Below, in pieces: positions 9,001 through 12,000 of a stretch of 13,716 nt of DNA. This stretch comes from a virus (Duplodnaviria; Heunggongvirae; Uroviricota; Caudoviricetes), in IMG/VR virus record IMGVR_UViG_2671180422_000003, positions 1 through 13,716 of that record. One strand, given 5' to 3'. The first letter of the stretch is position 1; every line of letters starts with the position of its first letter. A program made the position numbers.

Positions 9001-12000
9001 ATCTCATTGCTGATGCTTGATATTGAGCATCTTGCGCGCGGTAAGGGGCTGCGTTGAGATAAGAGCCAGTCATTACAAATACCAGGATTTAGCCTCGCAT
9101 TCGCGGGGCTTTTTATTGCCATTACAAAAGCCACTCCCTACAGAGTGGCTTTGATAATGGCTTATACCCTACACGGGATAGCTTAACTGATATCCCTTTT
9201 AACGGATAAAGGTATTCAAGCCTGACACATCATGCGCTGTATCGTCGCCGTATTCCCGTATTAACAGAGACCGTAGCCCGACGGGGAACTCCTTCTGCGC
9301 GAGTGTGCGGGAATAATCAAAAACGATGCACACCGGGTTTTTACCGCGTTTATGGTTCGCGGGTTTGTCCCTCATGCTCGCCAGTCCTGTGCGGGGGTGG
9401 AAGAAACAGGACACTTACACAGATTCTTGTGGGCACGATGCTATGCCTTTCTGGATTATCCCGATGCCATTCATGCAAGGCGTTGTATCAGACGTTCGTC
9501 AGAGCTGTCAGGCTGACGGGTCCTCCCGGTGGGGTGGCCTGCCACGGGGCGGGAGCGTCGCGGAAAAAGGCTAGTTTTTGAAATTTTATTCGTCATCACC
9601 ACTACTGTAATGTATTGATATTACGGTGATTTTATTTTTATGGTGTCGATTTTGATTGTTTTTTGTTCACCACTAACACCGTTTGCCTAAAGTTGTTCGC
9701 AAGATGCATGTTTAAAACATTCTGGAGCGGGTATGGATCGAGAGTTAAAAAATCTGACGCTGAATATCAGTCAACTGGCGGCACTGTCAGGTGTACATCG
9801 CCAGACTGCTGCGGCAAGGCTGCAAAATCTACCCGTTGCAGGGGGGCATGAAAGCAACCTCAAGCTTTATCGGGTGGTTGATATTGTGTCGGCATTTCTG
9901 GCATTACCACCGCCGGTTGCAGAAGGCGAAATGGACGCGCATGAGCGCAAAGCCTGGTACCCGACAGAAAGTGGCGTTTATCCGTCAGCTTAAAGAGCAG
10001 GCAACCCGCCTGAATCTTTCATCTTCTGAGTTGCTTCGTGCTAAGGCAGCCCAGCTGGGGGTAAGCAGTGCTGCAGAAGTGTATATCCGCAAAATGGAGC
10101 AGGCAGGAAAAGCCACGCATTCGCTGGGTCTGAAAAGTGCAGCAGCCCGCCAGGAGATAGGCGTTCTGATAGGTGAACTGGCCCGCGGCAATTTAGGGGC
10201 GCTGAGGGGATCCGGGATAACGCTGGCTAACCGTGCCGGATGGATAGACACACTGATGTCACCGAAAGGCATGATGCTTGGCGGGGTTATTGGCGGTATT
10301 GCCGCGGCCGTCTATGGTCTGGGTAAAGCCTGGTATGACGGTCAGAAGGAGGGGGAAGAATTTAACCGCCAGTTGTCGCTGACGGGGCATTATGCCGGAG
10401 TCACTGCCGGGCAGCTGTGGACGCTCAGTCGTGCTATTTCCGGGAATGGTATCACGCAACATGCTGCAGCCGGTGCGCTGGCTCAGGTGGTGGGGAGTGG
10501 TGCATTTCGTGGAAACGATATCGGTATGGTGGCGAGAGCTGCCGCACAGATGGAGCGATCGGTTGGCCAGTCGATCAGCGATACCATAAATCAGTTTAAG
10601 CGGCTGAAGGATGATCCTGTACCTTCTGCCCGTAAGGTGAATGGTAAGGCGCTTTCAGCGGATATAACACTGACGCCGAAAGATATTGGTACGCTTAACT
10701 CAACAACAATGTCATTCAGCGGTGGTGCTGGTTGGTTCAAATTAGCAACGGTAACCATGCCACAGGCGAGTTCTGTTGTTTCAATTACGTTGATTGGTGG
10801 CGCGGGATTTAACGTGGGGTCACCTCAACAGGCAGGTATATCTGAACTTGTTTTGCGTGCAGGTAATGGTAATCCGAAGGGGATTACTGGTGCTTTATGG
10901 CAGCGCACATCGACAGGGTTTACAAATTTTGCCTGGGTCAATACATCTGGTGATACTTACGATATTTACGTTGCAATCGGAAATTTTGCGACTGGTGTAA
11001 ATATTCAATGGGATTATACCAGTAATGCCAGCGTGACGATTCATACGTCACCAGCATATTCTGCTAATAAGCCGGAAGGGTTAACGGACGGTACAGTTTA
11101 TTCACTCTATACGCCATCAGAGCAGTTTTATCCGCCTGGCGCACCAATCCCGTGGCCATCAGATACCGTTCCGTCTGGCTATGCCCTGATGCAGGGGCAG
11201 ACTTTTGACAAATCTGCATACCCGAAACTTGCAGCCGCTTATCCGTCAGGCGTGATCCCTGATATGCGTGGCTGGACGATTAAGGGCAAACCCGCCAGTG
11301 GTCGTGCCGTATTGTCTCAGGAACAGGACGGCATTAAATCGCACACCCACAGCGCCAGCGCATCCAGTACGGATTTGGGGACGAAAACCACATCGTCGTT
11401 TGATTACGGCACTAAATCCACGAATAACACCGGGGCGCATACCCATAGTATTAGCGGGACCGCAAATAGTGCCGGTGCGCACCAACACAAGAGTTCCGGT
11501 GCATTTGGTGGCACGAACACGAGCATTTTCCCTAATGGTTATACCGCGATTTCAAATCTAAGCGCGGGGATTATGAGCACAACAAGCGGTAGTGGCCAGA
11601 CTCGTAATGCAGGGAAGACATCATCAGATGGTGCTCATACCCACTCGCTGTCCGGCACTGCTGCAAGCGCAGGCGCACATGCACATACTGTCGGTATTGG
11701 TGCTCATACGCACTCCGTTGCGATTGGCTCACATGGACACACCATCACCGTTAACGCTGCTGGTAACGCGGAAAACACCGTCAAAAACATCGCATTTAAC
11801 TACATTGTGAGGCTTGCATAATGGTATTCAGAATGAGTGAACAACCACGGACCATAACAATTTATAATCTGCTGGCCGGAACTAATGAATTTATTGGTGA
11901 AGGTGATGCATATATTCCGCCTCATACAGGTCTGCCAGCAAACAGTACCTATATTGCACCGCCAGATATTCCGGCAGGCTTCGTGGCTGTTTTCAACAGT

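What the first reader, a model, noticed from the sequence alone, without database searches (positions are those of the whole stretch)
9415..9732. Variant cos site upstream of the truncated Nu1 gene
The segment at 9544..9563 matches the lambda cosN context in both flanks but differs in the 12-nt core (GGGCGGGAGCGT against GGGCGGCGACCT), and is followed by an AT-rich stretch with repeated CACCACT and GATTTT elements at the expected cosB distance from the Nu1 start. A retained cos next to a crippled terminase gene would allow packaging only in trans by a helper phage with matching specificity.
Basis: partly seen in the sequence, partly recalled or inferred. Interest (0 to 1): 0.5.

Follow-up and report, generated by a model that had tools for sequence, protein, structure and literature searches.

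The report
Intact cos site beside deleted terminase
This is a genuine but ordinary DNA-packaging (cos) site of a common lambda-like E. coli prophage family, left intact next to a 9.8-kb deletion that removed the packaging and head genes, so it could be used only if a related phage supplies the enzyme.

Summary
Window 9547-9558 reads GGGCGGGAGCGT, between the nick-flanking ACG and CGCGG of lambda cosN. The cosQ heptamer GGGTCCT lies 22 nt upstream (9518-9524). An AT-rich cosB follows, and a small-terminase gene starts 186 nt from the left end (190 in lambda).

It is not a new variant. The GenBank/ENA records of phages cdtI and Tritos begin with exactly this 12-mer and the next 21 bases. It is also the majority allele (63 of 80) among IMG/VR prophages with the same small terminase. 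The differences from lambda (bp 7, 8, 9, 11) lie in the right half of cosN, which the Feiss laboratory has described as naturally variable.

cosB has the classical layout: R3, a perfect IHF consensus, inverted R2, then R1. The layout is conserved across the family and co-varies with the terminase DNA-binding domain.

The "Nu1" gene is a DUF1441-type small terminase with no sequence similarity to Nu1. It is cut after codon 76 by a roughly 9.8-kb illegitimate deletion into the tape-measure gene.

Use by a helper in trans is plausible and has precedent (O157 Sakai Sp4/Sp14), but is untested here. Interest is low.

The parts
9518..9524 (+). cosQ heptamer GGGTCCT (packaging-termination signal)
   Evidence: Identical to the lambda heptamer, which lies 23 nt left of the lambda nick; here the gap is 22 nt. 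Homology to cdtI, 606R10, LLS and lambda begins within a few bases to the left of it, so it marks the left boundary of the shared module. Its role in termination is taken from PMC4669245 and PMC9026076.
9542..9563 (.). cosN, about 22 bp. The 12-nt cohesive-end core GGGCGGGAGCGT is 9547-9558. Inferred nicks: top strand at 9546/9547, bottom strand at 9558/9559.
   Evidence: The cdtI and Tritos records start exactly at this 12-mer, and the cdtI record ends with ...CCTGCCACG. It is the majority allele among 80 related prophages. The CG dinucleotides flanking both nicks are conserved, as in the lambda-like group (PMC4669245). 12 of 22 positions are rotationally symmetric, against 10 of 22 in lambda. 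The nick positions are inferred, not measured.
9564..9592 (+). I2-like AT-rich spacer with A5, T5 and A3T4 tracts
   Evidence: 24% G+C. GGCTAGTTTTT is shared with cdtI, LLS and yong2, and the segment aligns with the lambda I2 region. I2 is described in PMC4856287.
9593..9605 (+). R3 candidate, TCATCACCACTAC (small-terminase binding site nearest cosN)
   Evidence: It lies at bp 47-59 from the left end; lambda R3 is at 53-68. It aligns with the CATCATCAT(CAT) block of Fels-1, VT1-Sakai, LLS, yong2 and Chris1. It contains one of the two exact TCACCACTA copies.
9608..9620 (-). I1 candidate: perfect IHF consensus TATCAATACATTA (WATCAANNNNTTR)
   Evidence: It is one of only two perfect matches in the window, where 0.58 are expected. 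A match with at most one mismatch, in the same orientation and at bp 61-64, is present in 9 of 10 other DUF1441-type cos regions. The lambda match is at bp 79.
9640..9650 (-). R2 candidate, inverted: ATGGTGTCGAT (= ATCGACACCAT)
   Evidence: It aligns with the conserved (G)ATGTCGA or GATGATGA block. In Gifsy-2, PhiR40_1, Fels-1 and VT1-Sakai that block is the inverted copy of R1 or R3. A second partial inverted copy, ACGGTGA (ACAGTGG in most relatives), lies at 9623-9631.
9666..9677 (+). R1 candidate, TTCACCACTAAC, preceded by a conserved T-rich spacer (9651-9665)
   Evidence: It holds the second exact TCACCACTA copy. TGTTC(A/G)nCA(T/C) is the best conserved cosB block across the family.
9733..9993 (+). 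Truncated small-terminase gene (terS'). Codons 1-76 are native (to 9960), followed by 10 foreign codons and a stop. The Shine-Dalgarno sequence GGAG is at 9724-9727.
   Evidence: Pfam DUF1441, E = 4e-14. PHROG 141 'terminase small subunit', E = 6e-25. Full-length relatives are 164 aa. The retained part is predicted to be a winged helix-turn-helix. Its best fold matches are terminase small-subunit DNA-binding domains, including lambda gpNu1 (1j9i).
9960..9961 (.). Deletion junction: terS codon 76 joined to the interior of the tape-measure gene
   Evidence: The window is collinear with mEp460 and jumps from about position 252 to about 10038, a loss of roughly 9.8 kb. Only 2-3 bp of microhomology lie at the join. 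The junction 32-mer was not found in any collection searched.
9961..10621 (+). Internal fragment of the tail tape-measure gene, out of frame with terS'
   Evidence: 99% identical to mEp460 10035-10698. Pfam TMP_2. Homology to mEp460 ends at 10621, where a tail-fibre C-terminal part begins.

Best explanation
Window 9518-9732 is the complete cohesive-end site of a lambdoid prophage of the mEp460/cdtI (Gifsy-like head) group. Its order is cosQ, cosN, an I2-like spacer, then cosB (R3, IHF site, inverted R2, R1).

In an intact relative the mechanism would run as follows.
1. [quoted passage not shown]
2. This positions the large terminase to nick cosN 12 nt apart, giving the 5' overhang GGGCGGGAGCGT.
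3. Packaging then proceeds rightwards.
4. cosQ plus cosN of the next cos terminate packaging.

In this prophage an illegitimate deletion of about 9.8 kb runs from terS codon 76 into the tape-measure gene. A second deletion runs from the tape-measure gene into the tail-fibre gene. Together they removed the terminase, head and tail genes. The site therefore survives by position, not by demonstrated selection. It can act only if a co-resident or infecting phage supplies an mEp460-type small terminase with its large terminase.

Shown: the sequence identity of the site, the conserved architecture, and the deletion. Inferred: the nick positions, protein binding at the R and I1 sites, and competence in trans.
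For: - Identity with known phage ends. The cdtI and Tritos records start with GGGCGGGAGCGTCGCGGAAAAAGGCTAGTTTTT, and cdtI ends with GGGTCCTTCCGGTGGGGTGGCCTGCCACG. Tritos forms plaques (PMC9928086).
- Near-identity with a live phage. From cosQ to the ATG, the window differs from phage mEp460 at 4 of about 218 positions. One is bp 12 of cosN, where the window's T is the majority allele (63 T-type against 14 G-type in 80 loci).
- Agreement with published variation. The differences from lambda fall at bp 7-9 and 11. cosQ and the CG dinucleotides at the nicks are conserved, as described for natural cosN variation (PMC4669245).
- cosB layout. R3, I1, inverted R2 and R1 are conserved in position across ten DUF1441-type cos regions. 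There is a perfect IHF consensus at 9608-9620.
- Modularity. cdtI shares cosQ, cosN and I2, but has an unrelated cosB and a small terminase only 42% identical, diverged mostly in the N-terminal domain. The PhiR40_1 small terminase differs from mEp460's only in the first ~60 residues (about 20 of 60), and exactly its R sequences differ.
- The gene. It is a small terminase by Pfam and PHROG, and its fold resembles terminase small-subunit DNA-binding domains.
- The deletion is mapped.
- Precedent. Trans packaging of a terminase-defective prophage with a matching cos has been reported (PMC2669165).
Against: - No experiment here shows cutting at this site or binding to the proposed R and I1 sites.
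- I could not read the cdtI paper (Asakura 2007) or Vahanian et al. 2017. I therefore do not know whether the cdtI and Tritos record starts rest on measured ends or on analogy with lambda.
- The LLS cohesive end in the same terminase family is explicitly inferred, not measured (PMC12315714).
- R2 in the window is a weak inverted match to R3 and R1 (about 6-7 of 10). Its assignment rests on positional homology with relatives.
- The structure model is only moderately confident (pLDDT 68) and the Foldseek E-values are weak (0.06-0.4).
- Whether a helper is present in the source genome is unknown.
- A single chromosomal cos has no downstream partner cos to terminate packaging.
Confidence: 0.85

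Rival explanations
1. The site is an inert fossil. It looks intact only because the deletion is recent, it is never used, and it will decay.
For: The junction sequence is absent from 5,426 complete E. coli genomes and from three large contig collections. The deletion is therefore rare and probably young. About 20 kb of morphogenesis genes are gone. Many differently truncated DUF1441 genes exist in databases, which suggests ordinary decay.
Against: This does not conflict with the identity of the site. It concerns only whether the site is used. Prophages with this cos and terS type are common: 1,199 of 5,426 complete E. coli genomes cover at least 80% of the 701-nt cos-terS probe, some of them with a different cosB subtype. 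A matching helper is therefore not far-fetched, and trans packaging of such a prophage has been observed.
Confidence: 0.45
2. The conserved sequence is the 3' end of a protein-coding gene (ORF 9326-9574, PHROG 17397, annotated as mEp460_059) and not a packaging signal.
For: The ORF is annotated in mEp460 and matches a PHROG family with E = 1e-47.
Against: In cdtI, 606R10, LLS and lambda the sequence upstream of cosQ is unrelated, while cosQ and cosN are retained. Conservation therefore follows cos and not the ORF. There is no Pfam match. Two phage records start inside the ORF, at the 12-mer.
Confidence: 0.05
3. The site is a satellite-type (PICI-like) cos that hijacks a helper terminase through a redirecting protein.
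For: A cos with conserved cosQ and cosN next to a small DNA-binding protein gene resembles the cos-rpp layout of enterobacterial PICIs (PMC9026076). The fold search also lists 6hn7 from the PICI Rpp study.
Against: The whole window is collinear with phage mEp460. cosB is essentially identical to that phage's own cosB, whereas PICI cos sites lack a phage-like cosB. The gene is the 5' half of an ordinary terS, cut by a deletion.
Confidence: 0.03

Closest known systems
cos of phages cdtI (AB285204) and Tritos (OV696610, prophage 3 of E. coli LF82)
   Same: cosQ, the cosQ-cosN spacer (one base differs), the 12-nt core GGGCGGGAGCGT and the next 21 nt are the same.
   Different: From about bp 34 onwards cosB is unrelated, and the small terminase is only 42% identical. 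These phages would probably not recognise the window's cosB.
cos region of phage mEp460 (JQ182728) and its relatives Ayreon, phi458 and vB_EcoS-569R4
   Same: The whole cosQ-cosN-cosB-terS 5' region is 96-99% identical. The R3, IHF, R2 and R1 candidates are the same.
   Different: The mEp460 record has G at cosN bp 12 and three other substitutions. Those phages have a full-length terS and terL.
Bacteriophage lambda cos (cosQ, cosN, I2, R3, I1, R2, R1, then Nu1)
   Same: The same order of subsites, the same cosQ heptamer, the same left half of cosN and the same nick-flanking CG. There is an AT-rich I2, an IHF site between R3 and an inverted R2, and the small-terminase gene starts about 190 bp from the end.
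   Different: Core bp 7, 8, 9 and 11 differ. cosQ is 1 nt closer to the nick. The R sequences are unrelated (CACCACT-type against CGTTTCC-type). R1 is about 30 bp nearer to cosN. The small terminase belongs to another Pfam family.
O157 Sakai Sp4, a prophage with nu1 disrupted by an IS and a cos identical to that of Sp14
   Same: A defective lambdoid prophage that keeps an intact cos next to a broken small-terminase gene. It was reported to be packaged, probably by the terminase of a sibling prophage (PMC2669165).
   Different: Sp4 has a lambda-type Nu1 and still has its large terminase and most morphogenesis genes. Here both terminase subunits are lost, together with the head and tail genes.

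Membership tests
lambda-like cos site (Feiss laboratory definition: 12-base 5' cohesive ends similar to lambda's, with cosQ, cosN and cosB) | The 7-bp cosQ GGGTCCT lies about 20-25 bp left of the nick | tested here: met
   9518-9524, 22 nt before the inferred nick; the lambda gap is 23 nt.
lambda-like cos site (Feiss laboratory definition: 12-base 5' cohesive ends similar to lambda's, with cosQ, cosN and cosB) | The cosN left half GGGCGG and the CG dinucleotides flanking both nick positions are conserved, and variation is confined to bp 7-12 | tested here: met
   ACG|GGGCGGGAGCGT|CGCGG, with differences at bp 7, 8, 9 and 11 only. The criterion comes from PMC4669245.
lambda-like cos site (Feiss laboratory definition: 12-base 5' cohesive ends similar to lambda's, with cosQ, cosN and cosB) | Terminase produces a 12-nt 5' overhang at this position | not testable with these tools
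   The only indirect support is that the cdtI and Tritos records start at the 12-mer.
lambda-like cos site (Feiss laboratory definition: 12-base 5' cohesive ends similar to lambda's, with cosQ, cosN and cosB) | A complex cosB: three R sequences with the middle one inverted, and an IHF site between R3 and R2 | tested here: met
   R3 at 9593-9605, IHF at 9608-9620 (perfect consensus), inverted R2 at 9640-9650 and R1 at 9666-9677. The layout is conserved across the family. R2 is a weak copy, and binding was not tested.
lambda-like cos site (Feiss laboratory definition: 12-base 5' cohesive ends similar to lambda's, with cosQ, cosN and cosB) | The small-terminase gene starts just to the right of cosB | tested here: met
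   The ATG is at 9733, 186 nt from the left end; lambda has 190.
Phage_Nu1 (lambda gpNu1) small-terminase family | Sequence membership in the Nu1 family | tested here: not met
   Pfam gives DUF1441 (PF07278) only. BLASTP against lambda Nu1 gives E = 22. There is no sequence hit in the PDB.
Phage_Nu1 (lambda gpNu1) small-terminase family | [quoted passage not shown] | tested here: inconclusive
   The AF2 model of residues 1-76 (pLDDT 68) has strand-helix-helix-wing-helix topology. Foldseek top hits are terminase small-subunit DNA-binding domains 7lwr, 7lxs and 7lw0. 1j9i (gpNu1 DNA-binding domain) ranks sixth with probability 0.93, but E-values are 0.06-0.4.
DUF1441-type small terminase (Gifsy-2, Fels-1, VT1-Sakai, mEp460, cdtI) | A Pfam PF07278 match above the gathering score, and a position immediately upstream of a lambda-A-like large terminase in intact relatives | tested here: met
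   53 bits against a cut-off of 35 for the fragment, and 140 bits for the full-length relative. terL follows terS in mEp460, 569R4, Gifsy-2 and Fels-1. PHROG 141 'terminase small subunit' also matches.
PICI-type cos (cos-rpp) | cosQ and cosN without a phage-like cosB, next to an rpp redirecting gene, inside a satellite island | tested here: not met
   cosB is essentially identical to that of phage mEp460. The region is collinear with that phage. The gene is a truncated terS. The criterion comes from PMC9026076.

The most novel reading that the evidence does not exclude
The remnant may not be passive, in either of two ways.

(a) The 86-residue product keeps the whole predicted DNA-binding domain and still has a ribosome-binding site in the late operon. 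It could occupy the R sites of an induced or infecting mEp460-type phage and act as a dominant-negative packaging inhibitor.

(b) The orphan cos could let such a helper start one-directional packaging into the few remaining prophage genes and the adjacent chromosome. That would amount to cos-initiated transfer of host DNA.
Probability: 0.06. Interest if true: 0.45.

Novelty: already known. Interest (0 to 1): 0.12.

Why it matters
It matters little beyond annotation. The work shows how to read the cos of the large DUF1441-terminase group of enterobacterial prophages: a cosQ-cosN-I2 module shared with phages whose large terminase is annotated as similar, and a cosB module that co-varies with the DNA-binding domain of the small terminase. 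It also flags one more defective prophage that a related helper could in principle mobilise. If trans packaging were shown, it would add a case to the known pool of interacting defective prophages. It would not establish a new principle.

Tried and rejected
- Literature search for the 12-mer and its 11-mer prefix found only unrelated eukaryotic or G-quadruplex papers.
- Asakura et al. 2007 (cdtI) and Vahanian et al. 2017 (natural history of cosN) are not held. Whether the ends of this cos type were measured therefore stays open.
- The junction 32-mer was searched in genome contigs, metagenome contigs and viral contigs, and the junction region in complete E. coli genomes. Nothing was found.
- The exact 86-aa product is not on record. 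The source strain remains unidentified.
- The search for homologous proteins returned mostly broken or partial DUF1441 proteins. The alignment for structure prediction was therefore shallow and the model only moderately confident.
- A sequence search of the PDB gave nothing.
- Close relatives (80 IMG/VR loci) are too similar for fine footprinting of cosB. More distant phages were used instead.
- A lambda-spacing cosQ-cosN pattern gave no hit, because I miscounted the spacer. It was corrected by direct location.
- GATTTT as a functional repeat was rejected because it is not conserved.
- Lambda-type R sequences (CGTTTCC) are not repeated in the window's cosB (from reading).
- The BLAST-suggested 23-bp overlap at the deletion junction was an alignment artefact. 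The real microhomology is 2-3 bp.
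Full report
**What is in the sequence**

Window 9544-9563 reads ACG GGGCGGGAGCGT CGCGG. The 12-nt core (9547-9558) differs from lambda's GGGCGGCGACCT at bp 7, 8, 9 and 11, and both flanks match lambda.

To the left, GACGGGTCCTCCCGGTG aligns with lambda ACGGGTCCTTTCCGGTG. The heptamer GGGTCCT (9518-9524) is lambda's cosQ, placed one base closer to the nick.

Over cosQ to I2, 52 of 79 aligned columns are identical to lambda. The best local score is 24, against at most 18 in shuffles, and both the core and GGGTCCT are unique in the window.

To the right, 9564-9732 is 34% G+C, against 49% for the whole window. An ORF with a GGAG ribosome-binding site starts at 9733, 186 nt from the presumed left end; lambda Nu1 starts at 190.

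**It is not a novel variant**

- The record of phage cdtI (AB285204) begins GGGCGGGAGCGTCGCGGAAAAAGGCTAGTTTTT and ends ...GGGTCCTTCCGGTGGGGTGGCCTGCCACG.
- The record of Tritos begins the same way. Tritos is prophage 3 of E. coli LF82 and forms plaques (PMC9928086).
- The window from cosQ to the terS start differs from phage mEp460 at only four positions.
- Among 80 IMG/VR prophage loci encoding an essentially identical small terminase, 60 match a strict cosN pattern with GGGCGGGAGCGT. Three more carry the same 12-mer with a changed flank. About 14 have G at bp 12.
- A 701-nt probe spanning cos and the terS 5' half is at least 80% covered in 1,199 of 5,426 complete E. coli genomes.
- The Feiss laboratory has described this pattern for the lambda-like group: cosQ, the left half of cosN and the CG dinucleotides at the nicks are conserved, while bp 7-12 vary. 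Gifsy-1, for example, differs at bp 8, 9 and 11 (PMC4669245).
- Phage LLS, with a terminase of the same family, is annotated with GGGCGGCGCGCT as an inferred cohesive end.

**Anatomy of cosB**

I compared the window with mEp460, PhiR40_1, 606R10, CP-1639, VT1-Sakai, Fels-1, Gifsy-2, LLS, yong2, Chris1 and cdtI. The shared layout is:

1. An AT-rich I2-like spacer (GGC..TTTTT).
2. A block at bp 47-60. It reads TCATCACCACTAC in the window and CATCATCATCAT in several others.
3. An IHF consensus.
4. An inverted block, (G)ATGTCGA or GATGATGA.
5. A T-rich spacer.
6. TGTTC(A/G)nCA(T/C).

In Fels-1 the three blocks are plainly one repeat with the middle copy inverted: CATCATCATCATG, AGATGATGATT and TTCATCATCTT. 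In Gifsy-2, R2 and R1 form a perfect 10-bp inverted repeat. This is the R3-I1-R2-R1 arrangement of lambda, which has also been reported for Gifsy-1 (PMC9026076).

In the window the assignments are as follows.

| Element | Window coordinates | Strand | Note |
|---|---|---|---|
| R3 | 9593-9605 | + | contains TCACCACTA |
| I1 (IHF) | 9608-9620 | - | TATCAATACATTA, perfect WATCAANNNNTTR |
| R2 | 9640-9650 | - | weak inverted copy |
| R1 | 9666-9677 | + | contains TCACCACTA |

- The IHF match is one of two perfect matches in 13.7 kb, where 0.58 are expected. It has the same orientation and position (bp 61-64) in 9 of 10 other DUF1441-type cos regions.
It is present only at 9596-9604 and 9667-9675, which places it within R3 and R1.
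- The GATTTT copies overlap R2 and the spacer and are not conserved as repeats.

**Modularity supports the functional assignment**

- cdtI and Tritos share cosQ, cosN and I2 with the window, but from about bp 34 their cosB is unrelated. Their small terminase is 42% identical overall, with most divergence in the N-terminal 65 residues.
- PhiR40_1 has a small terminase identical to the mEp460 type from about residue 62 onwards. It differs at about 20 of the first 60 residues. Its cosQ, cosN and I2 are identical, while its R blocks are changed.
- The DNA-binding domain and the R sequences therefore change together. The nicking and termination signals travel with the rest of the packaging module; mEp460's large terminase is annotated as similar to cdtI's.
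- A helper would need the mEp460-type small terminase, not merely the same cosN.

**The gene**

- The ORF at 9733-9993 is Pfam DUF1441 (53 bits, cut-off 35) and PHROG 141 'terminase small subunit'.
- It has no detectable sequence similarity to lambda Nu1 (BLASTP E = 22) or to any PDB chain.
- An AlphaFold model of residues 1-76 (pLDDT 68) has strand-helix-helix-wing-helix topology. Its best Foldseek matches are small-terminase DNA-binding domains (7lwr, 7lxs, 7lw0), lambda gpNu1 (1j9i, probability 0.93) and 6hn7. The E-values are weak, at 0.06-0.4.
- "Nu1" is therefore right by position and probably by fold, but not by family.

**The truncation**

- The window is collinear with mEp460 30663-44510 and then 1-252. 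At 9960/9961 it jumps to about position 10038, inside the tape-measure gene.
- About 9.8 kb is missing: the 3' half of terS, terL, the portal gene, the protease/scaffold gene (mEp460_005), the tail-tube genes, and the 5' end of the tape-measure gene (gene list).
- Only 2-3 bp of microhomology lie at the join.
- terS' encodes 76 native residues plus [10 protein letters not shown].
- A second break at 10621/10622 joins the tape-measure fragment to a tail-fibre C-terminal part (Collar and fibre-repeat domains).
- The junction sequence is absent from complete E. coli genomes and from three contig collections, and the 86-aa product is not on record. The deletion looks rare and probably recent, which by itself explains why cos is undamaged.

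**How it most likely works**

In intact relatives this site is where terminase recognises, nicks and starts packaging phage DNA, and where it ends the previous chromosome. Here it is an orphan substrate.

Use in trans by a prophage or infecting phage with an mEp460-type terminase is mechanistically reasonable. It also has a precedent: Sakai Sp4, with nu1 disrupted, was found packaged, probably by the Sp14 terminase because the two cos sites are identical (PMC2669165).

Against biological relevance, three points stand. The helper status of the source strain is unknown. The remnant is far below a headful. A single chromosomal cos has no partner to terminate packaging. I rate the identity of the site as a cos at about 0.85-0.9, its competence in trans at about 0.5, and real-world mobilisation much lower.

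**Rivals**

- A coding explanation (ORF 9326-9574, PHROG 17397) is unlikely. Homology in other phages starts at cosQ, not at the ORF.
- A PICI-type cos is excluded by the phage-identical cosB and the collinearity with mEp460.

**Verdict**

This is a correct and well-read observation of an ordinary, already represented cos site in a decayed lambdoid prophage. Novelty: already known. Interest: low.

Noticed in passing
L098 (VT1-Sakai, AP000400) and L097 (CP-1639, AJ304858), cos regions: Between the conserved nick-flanking ACG and CGCGG, these records have 11 nt (GGGCGGGCGGG) and 10 nt (GGGCGGGCGG) instead of 12. This may be compression errors in old G/C-rich reads, decayed cos sites, or shorter cohesive ends. 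A 9-nt end was measured for the distantly related cyanophage Cr-LKS3 (PMC9303873).
   Followed up: no
L001 (LR595868, mEp460_4F5) 1-30, and L099 (Gifsy-2) cos region: The 4F5 record starts 5 nt left of the core and lacks 3 nt at the right edge of cosN (GGGCGGGAGCG-CGG). This is probably an assembly artefact at the physical ends. Gifsy-2 has 14 nt (GGTGGCTTCGGGCT) between the flanking motifs. The Salmonella and Citrobacter relatives carry GGTACTCC instead of GGGTCCTCC at the cosQ position.
   Followed up: no
L101 (JQ182728, mEp460) 1-40, compared with window 9733-9750: The mEp460 record has ACG in place of the terS ATG and a 1-nt deletion a few codons later. Its annotated terS (1..519) therefore starts upstream, inside cosB. 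This is likely sequencing error or mis-annotation.
   Followed up: partly
window 10621-11821: The 676-aa ORF at 9791-11821 is a chimera. A tape-measure TMP_2 segment is followed by tail-fibre Collar and fibre-repeat domains. This is a second large deletion, from the tape-measure gene into the side tail-fibre gene. A tail-fibre assembly gene follows at 11821-12405.
   Followed up: partly
window 9300-9412: This roughly 110-bp stretch upstream of cos is 95-99% identical in more than 200 phage records, including Stx-converting phages and lambda-like phages (2B8, 4A7) that have a different cos and terminase. It overlaps the minus-strand ORF 9199-9414, which has no Pfam or PHROG match. What is conserved there is unexplained.
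   Followed up: no
window 807-5337: The early region encodes a CI-like S24 repressor (807-1481, minus strand), a CII-like protein, an Ash-family protein, a DUF968/HNH protein and a Q antiterminator (4585-5337). The mEp460 replication-gene block (about 34.4-37.7 kb) has no counterpart in the window. The same arrangement occurs in E. coli prophages that match the window only up to 9980, so it is a natural mosaic variant and not necessarily a deletion.
   Followed up: partly
window, whole: TCACCACTA with at most one mismatch occurs 8 times in the window, against 2.5 expected, and none of 200 shuffles reached 8. The six one-mismatch copies are scattered in coding regions. This is probably a codon or composition effect.
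   Followed up: no
window 9091-9120: A strong intrinsic-terminator-like hairpin (AGCCTCGCATTCGCGGGGCT followed by TTTTATT) lies between the lysis genes and cos. Expression of terS' would depend on Q-mediated read-through.
   Followed up: no
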